Of a stretch of 64,000 nucleotides of DNA, positions 36,731-44,734 are shown in pieces. This stretch comes from a virus: the IMG/VR virus record IMGVR_UViG_3300037297_000195, positions 1 to 64,000 of that record, one strand, 5' to 3'. Each line of letters opens with the position of its first letter. Within the stretch, counting starts at the first letter, position 1. The notes under the pieces were generated by a model. The model had not been told where the DNA came from. It saw nothing but the letters and a program-made list of their open reading frames with translations, and did no database searches. A program made the position numbers and the translations under genes.

Positions 36731-37333
36731 TTAAACCTCTTTTACTTTTGAGTATTTACCAATTTTGTTAACTTCAAATACTTTTCCAATTACTAAATAG
36801 GGGCTATGAGTAACCATGATAATTTGTAGTCCTAATTCCTGGCTCACTTTCTCGATAAATTTAGCTGCATTTTCATGCAAATCCTGGCTAAGAAAACGAA
36901 ACGGTTCATCGAATATCAATACATTCCTTGCTCCGCTCAAACTCCATATGGCCACTCTCAGGGCAAATGTGACGATATCTACAATACCTCCCCCGACATC
37001 AAACGGCGTTATTCTTTCCCCGCTTTCTTTTTCAATTAACCAAAATTCAACCTCTGTTTTCCCCCGTTTCTCTATGAATTCAATCTTAAATTCATAGCGT
37101 TTTTCTTGGAAGATGGCTTCAATAGCCAAGGTTACGATATGGGATAATTTAATTTCAATTTCTTTTTGCGTTAATAAGGCCACCTTCTGAATGATAATTC
37201 TGGCCTTTTCGATTATTTCAATCTCTTTTTGTTGGGCGAATAGATCCGTTTTAAGGCCGGTCAATTTTGATTTGAGATAATTTTTCTGGCCTTGATATTC
37301 GTTAATTTTTTTTCTGAGCGCTGTTGATTTCAT
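36731..37333 (-). CDS. sbcC: SbcC/Rad50-type ATPase, C-terminal half (coiled coil + signature/Walker B/H-loop lobe)
   Basis: Heptad-rich N-terminus, then DVGGGIVDIVTFALRVA (signature-like), VLIFDEPFRFL (Walker B/D-loop) and IIMVTHSP (H-loop). It has no Walker A. Confidence 0.7.
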   Translation of the reverse strand: MKSTALRKKINEYQGQKNYLKSKLTGLKTDLFAQQKEIEIIEKARIIIQKVALLTQKEIEIKLSHIVTLAIEAIFQEKRYEFKIEFIEKRGKTEVEFWLIEKESGERITPFDVGGGIVDIVTFALRVAIWSLSGARNVLIFDEPFRFLSQDLHENAAKFIEKVSQELGLQIIMVTHSPYLVIGKVFEVNKIGKYSKVKEV

Positions 37334-37527
37334 TATCTATTATGAGTCGGGATAATGACTATTACATTTTCTTTTTCATGAGTTTCTATCCTAATCTCTC
37401 CATTGATATCCTCATAATAATCACACATATCATTATTGTAATGTGCAAATTGGATTTCCATTTCTGAGGTTTTGGTTCTTTTTGATACTCTATACAATGC
37501 TTCGATTAAATCTTTATTAGTTATCAT
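37333..37527 (-). CDS. hypothetical protein
   Basis: 64-aa ORF with a 1-nt TAATG overlap to the downstream gene. Confidence 0.4.
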   Translation of the reverse strand: MITNKDLIEALYRVSKRTKTSEMEIQFAHYNNDMCDYYEDINGEIRIETHEKENVIVIIPTHNR

Positions 37528-37539
37528 ATTTCAAACTCC

Positions 37540-37803
37540 TTAAAGTATTTTTAACCATATATTCCCAAATTGTTCGACATAAATAATGTAATGATCGGTA
37601 ATATTTACAAAAGTCATATTCTCAGGATCATAAACAAAATCATCACCTGCAATTCCTATTTTAGGATAATTGCCGTTTAGTCTTGAATATTTTAACAGAA
37701 TGGACAATTGATCAACTAACGATTGGAGGTTTATAGTTTTCCCTTGATAGTTTTTATATTCATTCTTGGGCTTTGGTTTGGGCTTTGAACCAAAAATATT
37801 CAT
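37540..37803 (-). CDS. hypothetical protein
   Basis: 87-aa ORF with an ATGA overlap to the upstream ORF. Confidence 0.45.
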   Translation of the reverse strand: MNIFGSKPKPKPKNEYKNYQGKTINLQSLVDQLSILLKYSRLNGNYPKIGIAGDDFVYDPENMTFVNITDHYIIYVEQFGNIWLKIL

Positions 37804-38045
37804 ATATCAAACTCCTCTTCAATCTCCCCGATTATTTTGTTAATTTCTTTCTCTTCTTTTTCTACCTCTTTTGTTAATTTGTCTATTTCCTTTTCAATAC
37901 CTTTTTTGGTTTTAAGGCCAAGGTCTTTAAGCTGTTTCCAGACGCTTTCCTCCCGGCCTTTTGCTCTTTGCAATTCGCCTTCGCGTTTTTGGTTTTCATT
38001 TCTGATTCGCTCAATCTGTTTTTCAAGGCTCATTTTCTTCTCCAT
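37800..38045 (-). CDS. coiled-coil protein
   Basis: 81 aa, almost entirely Glu/Lys heptads. Confidence 0.45.
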   Translation of the reverse strand: MEKKMSLEKQIERIRNENQKREGELQRAKGREESVWKQLKDLGLKTKKGIEKEIDKLTKEVEKEEKEINKIIGEIEEEFDI

Positions 38046-38156
38046 TCATTACAATTATAGCATCTTGCCCAAAGGCCAGTTTTTCCCCATTTACGCCTCA
38101 CTTTAACAACTGATGGCCAGCAGGGGCGACCTTTTTCCTTTGGACAATCAAATTGT

Positions 38157-38405
38157 TTATTGGCCACTTTCTCTATCCATTAAATATTTTCCCATATCGC
38201 TAAAGGATCTGGTGTCAATTTGTGGGTCTTCAGTATTTTCTATTTCTCTCATTAATGTGAAAATATATTGGTAACTAATTGAAGATAATATTTTTAATTG
38301 GACATCGACTATTTTAAAGCCGTATTCTCCATAGCGATTTAATTCTTTCTCTCTTTCTTCGGAGGAACTATTCGAAGACAAGTAAATTTTATATTCATAT
38401 TTCAT
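38157..38405 (-). CDS. hypothetical protein
   Basis: 82-aa ORF with an ATGA overlap. Confidence 0.45.
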   Translation of the reverse strand: MKYEYKIYLSSNSSSEEREKELNRYGEYGFKIVDVQLKILSSISYQYIFTLMREIENTEDPQIDTRSFSDMGKYLMDRESGQ

Positions 38406-38635
38406 TCTTTACCCCTTTCCATAATAATATGTTCGAAAATATCGTCTTTCATATTCTCCAATTCTCTGATTTTGGAAGAGACAGCCCGATAGGCTTTATT
38501 TAGGGCTTCGAGTTTTGTATCATAGAAGTCTTGAACATTGCTAAAATGATGAGATTGATCGCTTTCTACAACACAGATAGCATTCCCTACTTTATTATCT
38601 CCCCAACAAACAGCATATTTTTTAATATCACTCAT
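38402..38635 (-). CDS. hypothetical protein
   Basis: 77-aa ORF with ATGA overlaps on both sides. Confidence 0.45.
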   Translation of the reverse strand: MSDIKKYAVCWGDNKVGNAICVVESDQSHHFSNVQDFYDTKLEALNKAYRAVSSKIRELENMKDDIFEHIIMERGKE

Positions 38636-39513
38636 TTCATTTTCTCCATTATTTTTTGTTTTACTTCATCTTCAATTTCATTATTGCCGAAATATTTTTC
38701 CATGTTTTTCTTAAATGAAATGCTCCCTCCTTCTTGGCCTTTAACCTTATTGATATAAGCTTGAACCTGGATATCATTAAATTCCTTTGCCCGCCTTTCC
38801 CTTTCCTGTTTTTCTTCTATATGTTTCCTGCTAACAACCTCTTCCTCAATCGGGAGAAAAACAGGTTCAACCGAGTTTGATTTGGCGTCATACAAATACA
38901 CTCTTGGCTTGTGATCGATTTGGGCGGCTGTCATTCTCATCATGGAGCCTGGATTAACCAATATCCGGCCTTTATATTCAGCGACAAATGGGAGGTGATT
39001 ATCACCAGAAACGATACAATCATATTCAGGATTTTTCTTAAGTATTTGGATACCGGTATTGGCTACTTGGCCAGGCCATAGCGGCTTATCTTCAATAATC
39101 ATTTGATGGGTGACGCCGATTTTCCTGTCTTTAATTCGATAACTTTCTATCGATTCAAATGGAGTTATTTTTCCTGATGGAGAATCAATAATTCCAGCAT
39201 TAAATAACACGCCAAAAGCAGTTGAGTTAATATCTTTTTCTTCTCTTCCTGATAAATCATGTTGTCCTGGAACGGCCATAACAATTAGGTTAAAATGCCT
39301 AATGGTATTATTAATTAATACATTTAATAGAGCATTACTCCATTTTGGCCTGTGTCCTAAATCACCAGCAATAATTAAAGGGCAATGTTTTTCATCTATT
39401 AAATCAAAAATAAAATCAATCTTTCTTTTTTGCGCTTTCCAATAATCATCAGTTCGGCATAATGGAGTATCGTCTCTTAAATGAAGATCAGCGCAGAATA
39501 TTGCATCAGTCAT
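38632..39513 (-). CDS. sbcD: SbcD/Mre11-type metallophosphoesterase nuclease
   Basis: FCADLHL (D.H), IIAGDLGH (GD.H), PGQHD (GNHD-like), VSGDNH, and GS..R. ATG 39513 after GAGAGGAAA is preferred over the track start 39537. Confidence 0.8.
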   Translation of the reverse strand: MTDAIFCADLHLRDDTPLCRTDDYWKAQKRKIDFIFDLIDEKHCPLIIAGDLGHRPKWSNALLNVLINNTIRHFNLIVMAVPGQHDLSGREEKDINSTAFGVLFNAGIIDSPSGKITPFESIESYRIKDRKIGVTHQMIIEDKPLWPGQVANTGIQILKKNPEYDCIVSGDNHLPFVAEYKGRILVNPGSMMRMTAAQIDHKPRVYLYDAKSNSVEPVFLPIEEEVVSRKHIEEKQERERRAKEFNDIQVQAYINKVKGQEGGSISFKKNMEKYFGNNEIEDEVKQKIMEKMK

Positions 39514-39685
39514 AAAATTTCCTCTCATTTTCTGCATCTTCTATTTGCTCCTGAAGATTCCTTATGTCTTCTTCTAACATTGTTATTTCTTCCTTAAGCT
39601 CTTTATTTTCTTTATCAAGTCGTTCATTTTCCCTATGGAGTTCATTTATATAGCTATTATGGACGGAGATTATTTTGTCAGCCAT
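39506..39685 (-). CDS. 59-aa coiled-coil protein
   Basis: TAATG overlap upstream and an 8-nt overlap with the sbcD start. Sequence MADKIISVHNSYINELHRENERLDKENKELKEEITMLEEDIRNLQEQIEDAENERKFYD. Confidence 0.4.
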   Translation of the reverse strand: MADKIISVHNSYINELHRENERLDKENKELKEEITMLEEDIRNLQEQIEDAENERKFYD

Positions 39686-40110
39686 TATTTAATTCTCCTA
39701 AATATTCTATATTTATATTTTAATTTATATATGATTTTCTGCGTTAAACTTATTTTGGGCTTAGGCTCTTCAACCACATTAAGATAATTATACATTTGTT
39801 CTTTGCTGAAAATTTTTATTTTTTTTCTAAATATGTTATTCAATCCAAATTCAGTATGCAGCCTCCAAAATTCCCCATTATGAATACGCACACATTCATC
39901 AAATTCTACAGTTTTTTTATTAGGACATATGATTTTTCCTTTGTAGTAATTATAATCAATTTCACTTATTTTATCAAGTGCTTCAAATGGCAACGCTGGA
40001 TCAAATAAATAACCAAATTCATTGCAATGGTTGCATAATCCTTTATGCCTGTCTTGACAATAATTATCGAAATCAAAATTATCATTTCGTATATCATTAT
40101 TAAACATCAT
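39685..40110 (-). CDS. Cys-containing hypothetical protein
   Basis: 141 aa, with CNHCN and CPNK...C clusters. Confidence 0.45.
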   Translation of the reverse strand: MMFNNDIRNDNFDFDNYCQDRHKGLCNHCNEFGYLFDPALPFEALDKISEIDYNYYKGKIICPNKKTVEFDECVRIHNGEFWRLHTEFGLNNIFRKKIKIFSKEQMYNYLNVVEEPKPKISLTQKIIYKLKYKYRIFRRIK

Positions 40111-40376
40111 TTAGCCCTTTTCAATTTCCCAGCCATATAAAGCCGAATTAATTCTTTAACAGTGATTCCCATTTTTTTCTCTTGGGCGCGGATATCATTT
40201 GAAATTGCTGTTGCCCCATCTTTATAGCCTACTTTATTACCTTCTTTCCATCCCATTTCATTCCCATCACGCCATGCTCTTAAACAGGAGGCGCACATAT
40301 TTTTTCCTTGGTATTCGGATAATTTTGCCAATATCCCCCTTTTGTCACAGAATTGACAAGTATCTTCTTCCATCAA
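40107..40376 (-). CDS. zinc-ribbon protein
   Basis: CQFC...CASC pattern and ATGA overlaps. Confidence 0.45.
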   Translation of the reverse strand: MMEEDTCQFCDKRGILAKLSEYQGKNMCASCLRAWRDGNEMGWKEGNKVGYKDGATAISNDIRAQEKKMGITVKELIRLYMAGKLKRAK

Positions 40377-40579
40377 TTCCTCCCCATTCTCATTGAATTA
40401 ACAATTGATTTAAGGTGGTTGATTTCCATTTGTTGGGTATTAAATACATTTTTTAACTGAGTTATTTTTTCATTTTGATATCGAATCATTTTCTTATTGT
40501 TCAAAATTTCAAGAGATAGTCTTTCAAGTAAATCATGGATATTGTCAAATTTTTCTTCTAATATATCTACATTTTCCAT
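40373..40579 (-). CDS. 68-aa coiled-coil protein
   Basis: ATG 40579 lies 7 nt after GGAGG. It overlaps the last 13 nt of the ATPase N-half in the -1 frame. Confidence 0.45.
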   Translation of the reverse strand: MENVDILEEKFDNIHDLLERLSLEILNNKKMIRYQNEKITQLKNVFNTQQMEINHLKSIVNSMRMGRN

Positions 40580-41625
40580 TCTTTCACCTCCTGCCCACAC
40601 ACCGGGCATTCATTCGGTTTAATTGCTTGCCATTCTTTATTTATTTCTATTAATGCTCTTTCATGTTCTTTTACTGACATTTCAATCGTTATCAATTCAT
40701 CAAACAGGGCTTCAATTCCCCCCAGCTTGTTTTCTTTATCTTGTAGAGCTTTAACCTTTGCTTCCAACTCATTAACCCTATCAATCGGTATTAATTTAAT
40801 TTCAGATATATCGGATTCAATTTTATTCAGCTCTTTAAACAAGGATTCAAGTTGTGTTAACTTGGAAATTTTTATATTTAGGCTATCCTGTCTCTCTTCT
40901 AAATCATTCAAAATATTTTGAGGTATTAATTTAATCCCGGAAATAACCGATTCAATTTCTTCCAATTCATCCAGATAGTTTTCAAGATCGGATATGGTTT
41001 CTTTCTTCTTTTCCAATTCGATTTCAAAGCCCTCTAAATGCCTCACCATGGCGTCTGCTTTGTCAACCCATGCCAAGGCATCAAATTCCGATTTGGACTC
41101 GTTATAGGCCGTTTCTATGGCCTTAAACTTCTTCCCGGCTTCCCTTTCATCCTGTCTGATTGCTTGGACGGTTTCATCGATTATTTCCATCCTAATAATT
41201 GTATTAAGCGCCTTTGCGGCATCTCCACCAGACATTGACAAAAGAAAAGGCGCATCATGTTGGAACTGAAAATTAAGCCAGGGGATTATGTTAACTATTC
41301 TCTGTATTTCATCGGGGGGGTCAGTCCCAAATTTTTCATATTCAAGGCCATCATTTGTTTTATAAATATTGGTGTTTTTCCCTCTGATTCTGGTAATTTT
41401 TTTATCATTGTCGAATGTGACTGAAATATTGGCCTTTTTCTTTTTATCAAATATAGGAAGAAAAGCGGTCCCGGTAGGTTTGTTTAATAGGTTTAATTTT
41501 AGAGTGCGAACGATTCCGCTTTTACAGGCATCCGTCTGGCCGATAATGCAATTAACTCCCGGATCAAATTTGAGATTTGCTAATCGCAAAGCTTGAAAAT
41601 TCATGATTTGTAATTGATTAATCAT
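40567..41625 (-). CDS. sbcC: SbcC/Rad50-type ATPase, N-terminal half (P-loop + coiled coil ending at CxxC zinc hook)
   Basis: MINQLQIMNFQALR...NCIIGQTDACKSG (deviant Walker A), about 250 aa of heptads, and a C-terminus ...NECPVCGQEVKEWKM. Confidence 0.7.
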   Translation of the reverse strand: MINQLQIMNFQALRLANLKFDPGVNCIIGQTDACKSGIVRTLKLNLLNKPTGTAFLPIFDKKKKANISVTFDNDKKITRIRGKNTNIYKTNDGLEYEKFGTDPPDEIQRIVNIIPWLNFQFQHDAPFLLSMSGGDAAKALNTIIRMEIIDETVQAIRQDEREAGKKFKAIETAYNESKSEFDALAWVDKADAMVRHLEGFEIELEKKKETISDLENYLDELEEIESVISGIKLIPQNILNDLEERQDSLNIKISKLTQLESLFKELNKIESDISEIKLIPIDRVNELEAKVKALQDKENKLGGIEALFDELITIEMSVKEHERALIEINKEWQAIKPNECPVCGQEVKEWKM

Positions 41626-42926: not shown

Positions 42927-43301
42927 TTAAACTATCTTTTCCATAATATCGAAAAATACATTGGCATCCAGCATAACTACTGGATTTTTAAATTCTTTTG
43001 TTTTCATGAATACCAACCAATTTTTTTCTTTTGGGGTATTGGCCCTGGCTTGCCTGATAGCGGCTTGCCAGCCTATAGCTTGGCCGGATTTACACTCTAT
43101 AGCAAAGGGAAACCGTTCTGCCGCTTCTCCCCGGAGAATTACATCAACCCCGTTCATCCCCATTTGACGGGGTTCAATTAATGAATCATCCTCCCTCCCC
43201 CAAGGGATATTCAGGATATCCGAAATTTTAGCTGCAACCCAGTCTTGGAGCCAACGGCCTTTAGCTTTTGCAGATGATGCTGTTATTCGTTTTTTGGCCA
43301 T
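42927..43301 (-). CDS. PD-(D/E)XK nuclease, Holliday-junction-resolvase (Hjc)-like
   Basis: KGRWLQDWVAAKI...NGVDVIL...FAIECKSG gives the D...ExK catalytic pattern, in an Hjc-like order and size (124 aa). Confidence 0.5.
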   Translation of the reverse strand: MAKKRITASSAKAKGRWLQDWVAAKISDILNIPWGREDDSLIEPRQMGMNGVDVILRGEAAERFPFAIECKSGQAIGWQAAIRQARANTPKEKNWLVFMKTKEFKNPVVMLDANVFFDIMEKIV

Positions 43302-43588: not shown

Positions 43589-44734
43589 TTAAAACCTCTT
43601 TTTTCTATTCGGAACAAAAGCGTTTTCAACTTCGTTCCAAACTTTAATCATTTCTTGTTTAAGTTCGTCTTCCAAGTTGTTTTGTTCAACTAATTCGATA
43701 TATTCAGATAATGGCTTTTCATAATCATCAACCATTTTGATCAAATCTTCTTTAGTTAATTTTTTATCAATTTTTTGTTTAATCCCACTTTCCCGAATAT
43801 AATCTTTTAAATCATCAATTTCCATCGATTCAAGATCCGGTCTTTCTTCCCCAAAAATATCCGGGTATTTACCGGTATATTGCTTAATATATTCGAGATT
43901 GTCTCTGATATCATCGATTCCATATCGATGAATTAATGTAATTGAAGCCTCTCTATAATCAATATCAACGCTTGATTTTTCAACTACAATATTAATTTTT
44001 TTGCCGATTATTCGTTTTGTTTTTGATCCGCTAATTGTGATTGTTTTCCTAATTTTCTCAACCGATTTTATTTTAAGCCTAATACTAAATTGGTGTAAAG
44101 CCTGTCTGGAAGCGCCCGCCGCTCTGGTCTTTTCTTCAAACGGCATGGCATTAATTTTGTCACGAATTTGATTAGAGCAAACAACAATGATATTTTGATC
44201 TTTAATTTCCTTAGCCGTCCATCTAATTTCTTCTGTAAAAACTGCCGCTCTTCTTGCGCCTGAATACCCACCTTCGGCATCAGGCTCGTCTAAATTTGCT
44301 AATGAATCAATAAAAAATCCCCTAATTGGAGCTTTTGATTTGCTTTCTTGAACATGTTTAAATGTTTCCCTAATTCCATTATTGGTGAATGAATTTTTAT
44401 CATCTAAATGAGCGCCAAACATGGCGGCAAAATCTCTATCAAGCCGTCCTTCGGTATCGTTATAATCAATATCTCCATTTTGTTTTTGGATATTACCGGC
44501 GATTTGAGCCATTAAAACAGTTTTGCCAGATCCTTCACCACCATAAATTTCCATTATTATTCCAAGGGGTATTCCCCCTTCATGATTAACGCCGCCAGAA
44601 ATAGCCAAATCTAAAGCAGTTGAACCTGTGCTGATATATATTTTCTTTGGCTCTTCCTTTTTCTCTTTAGGTTTAACAGAATCTTTAACTTGTTCTGATA
44701 ACGGTTTTTTATTTCTCTTCATTAACCCACCCAT
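43589..44734 (-). CDS. recA: RecA-family recombinase
   Basis: ISTGSTALDLAISGG...GIPLGIIMEIYGGEGSGKTVLMAQIAG parallels RecA ISTGSLSLDIALG.GGLP.GRIVEIYGPESSGKTTL. Walker B-like FFIDSLANL. Confidence 0.8.
   Translation of the reverse strand: MGGLMKRNKKPLSEQVKDSVKPKEKKEEPKKIYISTGSTALDLAISGGVNHEGGIPLGIIMEIYGGEGSGKTVLMAQIAGNIQKQNGDIDYNDTEGRLDRDFAAMFGAHLDDKNSFTNNGIRETFKHVQESKSKAPIRGFFIDSLANLDEPDAEGGYSGARRAAVFTEEIRWTAKEIKDQNIIVVCSNQIRDKINAMPFEEKTRAAGASRQALHQFSIRLKIKSVEKIRKTITISGSKTKRIIGKKINIVVEKSSVDIDYREASITLIHRYGIDDIRDNLEYIKQYTGKYPDIFGEERPDLESMEIDDLKDYIRESGIKQKIDKKLTKEDLIKMVDDYEKPLSEYIELVEQNNLEDELKQEMIKVWNEVENAFVPNRKKRF

What the first reader, a model, noticed from the sequence alone, without database searches (positions are those of the whole stretch)
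36731..41625. Rad50/SbcC-type ATPase split at the zinc hook into two genes 3.2 kb apart, flanking SbcD and ten small ORFs
ORF 40567..41625 has an ABC/SMC-type P-loop, NCIIGQTDACKSG, with Cys where the canonical GK[ST] Gly sits. About 250 aa of heptad coiled coil follow. It ends ...NECPVCGQEVKEWKM, which places a CxxC zinc-hook motif (the hallmark of the Rad50/SbcC coiled-coil apex) 8 residues from the stop.

The complementary lobe is a separate ORF, 36731..37333, on the same strand. It has coiled coil, a GGG signature-like motif, Walker B VLIFDEP and H-loop MVTHSP.

Between the two lie the SbcD/Mre11 nuclease (38632..39513) and ten small ORFs. Three of these (40373..40579, 39506..39685, 37800..38045) are almost pure coiled coil.

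In E. coli SbcCD and T4 gp46/47 the ATPase is a single polypeptide. A naturally fragmented Rad50 would be an unusual architecture, possibly with separate coiled-coil arm pieces.
Basis: partly seen in the sequence, partly recalled or inferred. Interest (0 to 1): 0.62.

Follow-up and report, generated by a model that had tools for sequence, protein, structure and literature searches.

The report
Phage Rad50 ATPase made in pieces
This uncultured phage makes its Rad50/SbcC-type DNA-end-processing ATPase from separate proteins cut just after the zinc hook, next to its Mre11/SbcD nuclease; at least hundreds of other uncultured phages and a few Bacillus phages share the cut, so it is a real way of building this enzyme, and I found no paper that describes it.

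Summary
ORF 40567..41625 (352 aa) is a Rad50-type N-lobe plus a helical arm of about 190 aa. It ends 9 residues after a CPVCG hook. ORF 36731..37333 (200 aa) is a 74-residue helix plus the Rad50-type C-lobe (GGG signature, Walker B, H-loop). Sequence profiles and AlphaFold models of the two halves match the N- and C-chains of the same two-chain P. furiosus Rad50 crystal structures.

The split is not an artefact:
- All 150 best cluster representatives are 291-406 aa, and 145 end at CxxC.
- In 71 non-redundant phage loci the parts are always separate genes, in the order N, SbcD, small helical protein "M", C in 70 of them.

Two further results:
- The arm is built of 45-residue repeats. N pieces come in about 300, 350 and 400 aa classes, while M and C keep their lengths. 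This argues against a simple one-to-one returning strand.
- The Walker A Cys (GQTDACKS) is a rare variant, seen in 2 of 135 aligned family members including the window.

This scan has reported the same split on at least eight other genomes. I found no paper describing it.

The parts
40567..41625 (-). N piece (352 aa): Rad50/SbcC-type ABC N-lobe (residues 1-146), helical arm (147-335), C-terminal CPVCG hook
   Evidence: Pfam AAA_15/AAA_23 and phrog_16465 at 2.9e-23. The family profile hits Rad50 3aux at 1e-14. AF2 pLDDT is 91.2. The best Foldseek PDB hits are Rad50 N-lobe chains 9a9j_A and 1f2u_A.
41518..41541 (-). Walker A GQTDACKS, with Cys34 (41524-41526) in place of the near-invariant Gly
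   Evidence: Gly is present in 148/150 representatives and 70/71 loci. Cys occurs only in the window and in P0143, both as D-A-C-K-S-G. The 82%-identical relative P0001 has Gly.
41254..41268 (-). Q-loop region QFQHD (Q122 invariant in the family)
40582..40986 (-). Three 45-residue repeats of the arm (residues 214-258, 259-303, 304-348). The first two carry a KLIP turn; the third carries IKPNECPVCG.
   Evidence: Profile autocorrelation peaks at lag 45 (0.40), above the heptad lag 7 (0.38); lag 90 gives 0.30. Leu is conserved at 214/259/304. The repeats are printed.
40594..40608 (-). Zinc-hook motif CPVCG, 9 residues before the stop
   Evidence: C340 is invariant, and P341 and C343 are 98-99% conserved. 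For the profile of the last 62 residues, the best PDB hit is the P. furiosus Rad50 zinc-hook structure 1l8d (E 1.1e-4), aligning CPLCG with CPVCG.
38632..39537 (-). Mre11/SbcD-type nuclease (301 aa; alternative start 39513). Motifs: DLH (39481-39489), GDL (39358-39366), GQHD (39256-39267), H144 (within 39103-39111), GDNH (38995-39006).
   Evidence: Pfam Metallophos_2 at 5e-8. The family profile hits Mre11 4hd0/1ii7 at 1e-9 and SbcD 7dog at 1e-7, ahead of other phosphoesterases. Invariant D17, H19, G58, D59, G91, H93, D94, H144, G178, H181.
37800..38045 (-). M: conserved small two-helix protein (81 aa, or 77 aa from the ATG at 38033). It is the third conserved protein of the ATPase set and a candidate arm component.
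   Evidence: An HMM of six members finds one such ORF in 70 of 71 complete loci, between SbcD and C, or between N and C in L032. The consensus has a near-invariant Gly30 and Leu39. No significant PDB sequence match.
36731..37333 (-). C piece (200 aa): one long helix (2-75), then the Rad50-type ABC C-lobe with GGG signature (36986-36994), Walker B VLIFDE (36905-36922) and H-loop TH (36806-36811)
   Evidence: Pfam AAA_21, phrog_15167 at 3.4e-30, and the phrog_77 SbcC C-end. The profile hits Rad50 C-chain 3qkr_B at 3e-15. AF2 pLDDT is 93.8. Foldseek gives 1ii8_B, 1f2u_B (TM 0.80, 2.8 A) and 9a9j_B.
40373..40579 (-). 68-aa coiled-coil ORF overlapping the N-piece stop by 13 nt, with GGAGG 7 nt before its ATG. 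Lineage-specific insert, not a family component.
   Evidence: Its only homologue is in the 82%-identical relative L012. It is not matched by the M HMM. Shine-Dalgarno site seen.
39506..40376 (-). Three inserted small ORFs (89-aa Cys-rich, 141-aa, 59-aa coiled coil) with no homologue in any related locus
37333..38635 (-). Further inserted small ORFs around M (77, 82, 45, 87 and 64 aa). Only the 45-aa Cys-rich ORF (38030-38167) recurs, in L015 and L043.

Best explanation
The region encodes a genuine multi-subunit version of the Mre11-Rad50 / SbcCD DNA-end-processing machine of a 70-kb tailed phage.

Shown here:
- The ABC ATPase is divided between an N piece and a C piece.
- The N piece carries Walker A, the Q-loop, a helical arm of 45-residue repeats and a C-terminal CPxCG zinc hook.
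- The C piece carries one long helix, the signature motif, Walker B and the H-loop.

Inferred:
- The two pieces assemble non-covalently into one ATPase head. The assembly would run through the shared beta-sheet and an antiparallel pairing of the head-proximal N helix with the C-piece helix. Laboratory-made two-chain Rad50 catalytic domains assemble in just this way.
- The head binds the SbcD/Mre11 dimer encoded between the pieces.
- The terminal CPxCG of two N pieces shares a zinc ion and links two complexes or two arms.
- The ~80-aa protein M belongs to the ATPase and most likely packs on the arm. It is always present and always lies between N and C, colinear with the returning strand of a one-piece Rad50.

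The complex would act with the adjacent RecA-like recombinase in recombination-dependent replication and end resection.

The other small ORFs between the halves are lineage-specific passengers in junctions that tolerate insertions.
For: Complementary lobes:
- The N-half profile hits Rad50 at 1e-14.
- The C-half profile hits the Rad50 C-chain at 3e-15.
- The AF2 models (pLDDT 91 and 94) match chains A and B respectively of the same entries 1f2u, 1ii8, 9a9j and 3qkr.

Hook: the profile of the N-piece C-terminus has the Rad50 hook structure 1l8d as its best PDB hit.

Nuclease: the SbcD profile hits Mre11/SbcD first.

The split is conserved:
- The 150 best of 9227 matching clusters are all 291-406 aa and colinear; 145 end at CxxC.
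- At least 518 relatives of the C piece occur in IMG/VR.
- In 71 non-redundant loci the parts are always separate: N-D-M-C in 70 and N-M-C-D in one.
- Bacillus phages 0305phi8-36, vB_BboS-125 and phBC6A51 have the same cut after CP[LT]C and an M-like gene just before C.

Context in the window:
- The phage has no other SMC/Rad50-like gene.
- The genes form one minus-strand string with coupled stops and starts and no terminator-like site.
- A RecA-like gene lies next to the string.
Against: - No experiment or complex model shows that N, M and C bind each other. The tools fold single chains only.
- M has no detectable similarity to any solved structure.
- The length of M does not follow the N arm. 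N pieces come in ~300, ~350 and ~400 aa classes, while M stays at 76-89 aa and C at ~203 aa (Spearman 0.09 and 0.03). So M plus the C helix cannot be a simple full-length returning strand, except in the shortest class.
- AF2 gives a low pTM (0.51) for the N piece, and family members' models superpose badly (rmsd 20-49 A). The arm geometry is therefore unknown.
- In this window the Walker A Gly is Cys and the near-invariant His13 is Leu. This could weaken ATP binding.
Confidence: 0.8

Rival explanations
1. Two-piece enzyme with a self-sufficient arm. N and C form the head, and the 45-residue repeats of the N arm fold on themselves or pair with a second N piece. M is then an accessory factor (adaptor, regulator or nuclease partner), not an arm strand.
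For: N-arm length changes in 45-50 aa steps with no change in M or C. The arm is internally repeated, with Pro-containing breaks at 231-235 and 276-280. M has no similarity to Rad50 coiled coils.
Against: M is present in 70 of 71 loci. It keeps its place between N and C even when SbcD moves (L032) and in Bacillus phages where SbcD lies elsewhere. In the ~300-aa class the arm (~140 aa) equals M plus the C helix (~153 aa).
Confidence: 0.3
2. Artefact or decay: the split comes from a mis-assembly, a frameshift error or a pseudogenised SbcC.
Against: The same cut, the same gene order and intact motifs occur in 71 independent loci and in sequenced Bacillus phages. Several genes lie between the halves. 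Both halves give high-confidence folds.
Confidence: 0.02
3. Recoding or protein splicing rejoins the pieces. One route is a -1 frameshift at the hook that fuses the N piece to the 68-aa coiled-coil ORF. The other is a split intein that joins N and C.
Against: - GGAGG lies 7 nt before its ATG, which points to ordinary translational coupling.
- The ORF exists only in the window and its 82% relative, where the overlap is only a few nucleotides.
- In most of the 71 loci the next conserved gene after N is SbcD, often overlapping the N-piece stop.
- No intein-like sequence is present: the N piece ends 6-20 aa after the hook, and the C piece starts directly with its helix.
Confidence: 0.03
4. It is not a Rad50/SbcC but a defence-type ABC ATPase (OLD, Septu PtuA, Gabija GajA, Lamassu LmuB) or a RecF/RecN/SMC relative that happens to be split.
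For: Pfam's best names are AAA_15, AAA_21 and AAA_23. PtuA, OLD, GajA, RecF and SMC appear lower in the PDB lists. One BFVD relative is labelled GajA/Old/RecF-like.
Against: Rad50 is the top hit for the N lobe, the C lobe and the hook separately. The partner is Mre11/SbcD-like, not TOPRIM or HNH. The genes sit in a phage replication-recombination module beside RecA.
Confidence: 0.05
5. In this particular phage the ATPase is crippled or regulatory, because Walker A Gly34 is Cys and His13 is Leu.
For: Both positions are at least 93% conserved in the family. The 82%-identical relative keeps Gly34 and His13.
Against: - Lys35, Ser36, Q122, the signature motif, Walker B and the H-loop are all intact.
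- A distant member, P0143, has the same D-A-C-K-S-G, including the uncommon Gly37, which suggests a tolerated variant.
- The window deviates at 4 of 34 conserved columns, and 11 of 134 relatives deviate at as many or more.
Confidence: 0.12

Closest known systems
Archaeal Rad50-Mre11 (P. furiosus, M. jannaschii), including the two-chain Rad50 catalytic-domain constructs 1F2T/1F2U, 1II8, 3QKR and 9A9J
   Same: - Best sequence and fold matches for the N lobe, the C lobe and the hook. The CPVCG hook is identical to that of P. furiosus.
- The head can be formed from separate N and C chains, as in those crystal constructs.
- An Mre11-type nuclease is the partner.
   Different: - In archaea the gene is one polypeptide, with a continuous antiparallel coiled coil through the hook.
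- Here the chain ends 6-20 residues after the hook. The C lobe carries only a 74-residue helix, and a separate ~80-aa protein is always co-encoded.
- The arm is made of 45-residue repeats of variable number.
E. coli SbcCD and phage T4 gp46/gp47 (also T5 D13/D12)
   Same: An ABC ATPase with a CPxCG hook plus a phosphoesterase nuclease, encoded together in a recombination/replication context. T4-like 'recombination endonuclease subunit' proteins appear among the BFVD fold matches.
   Different: Those ATPases are single polypeptides of 560-1048 aa. Here the ATPase is made of two lobe-bearing proteins plus M, with the nuclease gene inserted between them.
Bacillus phages 0305phi8-36 (gp8/gp7/gp5), vB_BboS-125 (gp32/gp34/gp35) and prophage phBC6A51 (BC1852/BC1854/BC1855)
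   Same: The same cut right after CP[LT]C, an M-like 77-92 aa helical gene before a 211-236 aa C piece, and SbcD nearby. These are members of the same split family at 25-37% identity.
   Different: - Their N pieces are longer (471-769 aa).
- In 0305phi8-36 the nuclease is fused to the N piece.
- SbcD lies after the C piece, not between the halves.
- The records annotate the pieces as unrelated 'exonuclease' and 'ATPase'. A 2011 paper noted only that one P-loop segment 'was not observed' (PMC3175470).
PHROG families 16465 ('exonuclease') and 15167 ('ATPase')
   Same: The window's N and C pieces are members, at 2.9e-23 and 3.4e-30. The two halves are therefore already catalogued as separate phage protein families.
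   Different: The catalogue does not link the two families as halves of one enzyme, and it has no annotated family for M.

Membership tests
Rad50/SbcC (ATPase of Mre11-Rad50 / SbcCD) | ABC-type N-lobe with Walker A GxxxxGK[ST] and Q-loop | tested here: met
   The fold and profile match Rad50 N-lobes. Q122 is invariant, and K35 and S36 are present. Caveat: the window has Cys at the second Gly (GQTDACKS), a variant seen in 2 of 135 aligned family members.
Rad50/SbcC (ATPase of Mre11-Rad50 / SbcCD) | ABC-type C-lobe with signature motif, Walker B, D-loop and H-loop | tested here: met
   GGG (114-116), VLIFDE(P) and TH(175-176) are conserved. The profile hits 3qkr_B at 3e-15. The fold matches 1f2u_B with TM 0.80. 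The lobe lies on a separate polypeptide.
Rad50/SbcC (ATPase of Mre11-Rad50 / SbcCD) | CxxC zinc hook | tested here: met
   CP[LV]CG is invariant or near-invariant. The C-terminal profile hits the Rad50 hook structure 1l8d as its best PDB match, E 1.1e-4. Zinc binding itself cannot be tested here.
Rad50/SbcC (ATPase of Mre11-Rad50 / SbcCD) | Both lobes and a continuous antiparallel coiled coil on one polypeptide, with the hook at the apex | tested here: not met
   The chain ends 9 residues after the hook. The C lobe is a separate gene 3.2 kb away. The same holds in all 71 loci and all 150 representatives. The position of the hook in the folded arm is unknown (pTM 0.51).
Rad50/SbcC (ATPase of Mre11-Rad50 / SbcCD) | Co-encoded Mre11/SbcD nuclease partner | tested here: met
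   38632..39537. The profile hits Mre11 and SbcD first. The nuclease is present in every complete related locus.
Mre11/SbcD nuclease | Phosphoesterase motifs I-V (DxH, GD, GNHD/E, H, GH) | tested here: met
   DLH, GDL, GQHD (Gln for Asn), H144 and GDNH. All metal-ligand positions are invariant in 41 sequences.
Mre11/SbcD nuclease | Capping domain and C-terminal helix-loop-helix that binds the Rad50 coiled-coil base | not tested
   The PDB alignments cover only profile positions ~8-226 of 295.
OLD / Septu PtuA / Gabija GajA-type ABC ATPases (Pfam AAA_15, AAA_21) | Contiguous ATPase with a short dimerisation insert, coupled to a TOPRIM or HNH nuclease, in a defence locus | tested here: not met
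   These proteins score well below Rad50. The partner is Mre11-like. The context is a phage replication-recombination module.
SMC / MukB / RecN | Hinge domain at the coiled-coil apex and a kleisin partner | tested here: not met
   There is no hinge; the arm ends in CPxCG. SMC heads are only secondary matches.

The most novel reading that the evidence does not exclude
The arm of this enzyme is not an intramolecular antiparallel coiled coil. The N piece carries a modular rod of 45-residue repeats (two, three or four in different phages), and its last turn has become the zinc hook. The small protein M binds these repeats in trans, possibly one copy per repeat. Arm length could then change by whole repeats without any change in M or in the C piece. 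If so, the covalent path from the N lobe through the hook and back to the C lobe would not be needed for Mre11-Rad50 function.
Probability: 0.2. Interest if true: 0.8.

Novelty: new variant of a known kind. Interest (0 to 1): 0.6.

Why it matters
Models of how Mre11-Rad50 senses and processes DNA ends depend on how ATP-driven head movements are passed along the coiled coil to the zinc hook. Here the polypeptide is cut exactly at the hook, and the arm is completed, if at all, by separate proteins. This natural, evolutionarily stable enzyme shows that covalent continuity through the apex is dispensable.

It also supplies small, separately expressible parts, and natural arm-length variants of about 300, 350 and 400 aa, for testing what the arm and hook do.

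On the practical side, the pieces are annotated today as unrelated 'exonuclease', 'ATPase' and 'hypothetical protein'. Phage genomes that carry them are therefore scored as lacking, or as having a truncated, SbcC.

Tried and rejected
- **The search for related loci with the single C-half** found nothing. The C-half alignment worked.
- **Looking for M among the ORFs just upstream of C in L008 and L015** picked the wrong ORFs. An HMM search located the true M genes.
- **M profile against the PDB** gave only coiled-coil noise, so its fold and partner remain unassigned.
- **A -1 frameshift fusing the N piece to the 68-aa ORF** was rejected. The ORF has its own Shine-Dalgarno site, it is confined to two close relatives, and SbcD is the next conserved gene elsewhere.
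- **M plus the C helix as an exact returning strand** was rejected for most members, because the lengths do not co-vary.
- **Arm geometry from AF2** could not be used. No coordinates are available, pTM is 0.51, and models of relatives differ by 20-49 A rmsd.
- **Literature searches** for a split, bipartite or truncated Rad50/SbcC in phages found no description.

Full report
**What is in the window**

The window is part of a complete 70,487-bp virus record with direct terminal repeats. From about 36.6 to 46.4 kb every gene is on the minus strand.

In the order of transcription the string holds:
- a RecA-like recombinase, 43589..44734
- small genes
- the N piece, 40567..41625
- four small ORFs
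- an Mre11/SbcD-type nuclease, 38632..39537
- six small ORFs
- the C piece, 36731..37333
- the lysis genes

Stops and starts overlap or abut, and several genes have Shine-Dalgarno sites. No terminator-like hairpin lies on the minus strand between the two halves. The only corrections are that the helical arm is about 190 residues rather than 250, and that the strand is minus.

**Are the two ORFs complementary lobes of one Rad50-type ATPase?**

Yes, by three independent lines.

1. Library matches. The N piece matches the front of Pfam AAA_15/AAA_23 and phrog_16465. The C piece matches the end of AAA_21, phrog_15167, and positions 870-954 of the 967-position SbcC family phrog_77.
2. Family profiles against the PDB.
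   - A profile of 135 N-piece relatives finds archaeal Rad50 first (3aux, 1e-14).
   - A profile of 58 C-piece relatives finds the C-terminal chain of P. furiosus Rad50 first (3qkr_B, 3e-15).
3. AlphaFold2 models.
   - The N piece (pLDDT 91.2) has a beta-rich head (1-146), then helices 147-183, 186-230, 236-275 and 281-335, then the CPVC.
   - The C piece (pLDDT 93.8, pTM 0.76) has one helix, 2-75, followed by the lobe.
   - Foldseek places the N model on chains A, and the C model on chains B, of the same two-chain Rad50 catalytic-domain entries: 1f2u, 1ii8, 9a9j and 3qkr. The C lobe reaches TM 0.80 at 2.8 A.

In those PDB entries the N- and C-terminal parts of Rad50 are separate chains of one catalytic domain. 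A two-chain head therefore has structural precedent.

The hook is more than a bare CxxC. The family consensus is P-x-x-C-P-L-C-G. A profile of the last 62 residues has the P. furiosus Rad50 zinc-hook structure 1l8d as its best PDB hit (E 1.1e-4), aligning with its CPVCG.

The nuclease profile hits Mre11 and SbcD ahead of other phosphoesterases. All its metal-binding motifs are invariant.

The phage has no other SMC/Rad50-like gene.

**Is the split real?**

- An exhaustive HMMER search of 1.84 billion cluster representatives gave 9227 matches. The best 150 are all 291-406 aa and colinear from end to end. Of these, 145 carry CxxC within 20 residues of the C-terminus.
- The C-piece alignment recovered at least 518 relatives in IMG/VR, and 80 loci were fetched.
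- With HMMs for the four parts I found 71 non-redundant loci that hold all of them. They are never fused. The order is N-SbcD-M-C in 70 loci and N-M-C-SbcD in one.
- The distance from the end of N to the start of C runs from 235 to 5646 nt, with a median of 1730. In the compact form (about 1100 nt) only SbcD and M lie between. The window's 3233 nt is in the upper quartile.
- Three deposited Bacillus phages have the same cut right after CP[LT]C, an M-like gene just before the C piece, and SbcD nearby. In 0305phi8-36 the nuclease is fused to the N piece.

An assembly error, a frameshift or a pseudogene is therefore excluded for practical purposes.

**The small ORFs**

- Only one of the three 'pure coiled-coil' ORFs, 37800..38045, belongs to the conserved set. 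It is M, a two-helix protein of 76-89 aa with a near-invariant Gly and Leu.
- The 68-aa ORF that overlaps the N-piece stop recurs only in the 82%-identical relative L012. It has its own GGAGG. I read the overlap as ordinary translational coupling, not as a frameshift site.
- The 59-aa coiled-coil ORF and the 89-, 141-, 77-, 82-, 87- and 64-aa ORFs have no homologue in any of the ~90 loci.
- The 45-aa Cys-rich ORF recurs in L015 and L043.

The junctions of this module evidently accept passengers. Elsewhere they hold HNH/AP2 genes, or the N piece is fused to extra domains (P0168; L053).

**How the arm is built**

This is the open part.

M always lies between N and C in gene order. This holds even where SbcD has moved. 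The order is colinear with the returning strand of a one-piece Rad50, and that is the basis for reading M as a third piece of the ATPase.

Two results complicate a simple 'returning strand' picture.

1. The N arm is made of 45-residue repeats.
   - The profile autocorrelation of the arm peaks at lag 45 (0.40), above the heptad lag (0.38). There is a second peak at lag 90.
   - Leu is conserved at 214, 259 and 304.
   - In the window the repeats are plain to see. Two carry a KLIP turn, where AF2 breaks the helix. The third carries IKPNECPVCG.
2. N pieces fall into classes of about 300, 350 and 400 aa. M (76-89 aa) and C (about 203 aa) do not change (Spearman 0.09 and 0.03).
   - Only in the shortest class does the arm (about 140 aa) equal M plus the C helix (about 153 aa).

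So the longer arms are either partly unpaired, or pair with a second N piece, or bind more than one M.

AF2 does not settle this. The pTM is 0.51, and models of relatives superpose at 20-49 A rmsd.

**Window-specific oddity**

Walker A reads GQTDACKS.
- Gly at this position is kept in 148/150 representatives and 70/71 loci, and in the 82%-identical relative.
- Cys recurs once, in the distant member P0143, in the same D-A-C-K-S-G context.
- His13 is also replaced, by Leu.
- All other catalytic residues are intact.

I take this to be a tolerated variant.

**Comparison with what is known**

The enzyme works like Mre11-Rad50/SbcCD, and it carries every catalytic and hook motif of that family. It fails one defining architectural feature: both lobes and the coiled coil on a single polypeptide.

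PHROGs already lists the two halves as separate families labelled 'exonuclease' and 'ATPase'. A 2011 paper on Mre11-Rad50 fusions remarked that in phage 0305phi8-36 one P-loop segment 'was not observed' (PMC3175470). It did not connect this with gp5. Five full-text searches found no description of a split Rad50/SbcC.

The scan's own notes report the same three-piece arrangement on at least eight other genomes. My results agree with them. They add the repeat structure of the arm, the lack of length co-variation, and the direct hook match.

**Verdict**

This is a real and widespread variant of a central DNA-repair machine, and I found no published description of it. The window is a typical member, with more inserted genes than usual and a rare Walker A substitution.

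Noticed in passing
window 38030-38167 (-): A 45-aa GTG-start ORF rich in Cys (CPKEKGRPC...CYNC) looks doubtful on its own. It has clear homologues in two related loci, L015 7384-7548 (2e-18) and L043, so it is probably a real small zinc-binding protein that travels with this module.
   Followed up: partly
L001 (Bacillus phage 0305phi8-36) 2978-5287 and 6304-7014: gp8 is a fusion of the SbcD nuclease with the N piece, and it ends at CPTC. The 'missing' second P-loop segment noted in PMC3175470 is gp5, three genes downstream.
   Followed up: partly
L032 6671-10205: This is the only locus of 71 with the order N-M-C-SbcD. M stays with the ATPase pieces when the nuclease gene moves.
   Followed up: no
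L053 2426-4018; protein P0168: Some N pieces carry extra C-terminal domains after the hook: a 178-aa extension with an HTH-like segment in L053, and NUMOD4/HNH_3 homing-endonuclease domains in P0168. The site after the hook seems to be a hotspot for insertions and fusions.
   Followed up: no
window 42927-43301 (-): A 124-aa protein between recA and the N piece gives a weak match to a phage PD-(D/E)XK endonuclease family (PF24608, E 0.0096). Relatives have a RuvC-like gene at the corresponding place.
   Followed up: no
window 43589-44734 (-): The RecA-like recombinase has a C-terminal match to the Ish1/HeH-type motif (PF10281, residues 307-338), an uncommon addition to RecA.
   Followed up: no
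window 41518-41541 (-) and protein P0143: Both family members with Cys in Walker A also have Gly two residues after the Lys (D-A-C-K-S-G). That Gly appeared in only a few of the other P-loops listed, so it may be a compensating change.
   Followed up: partly
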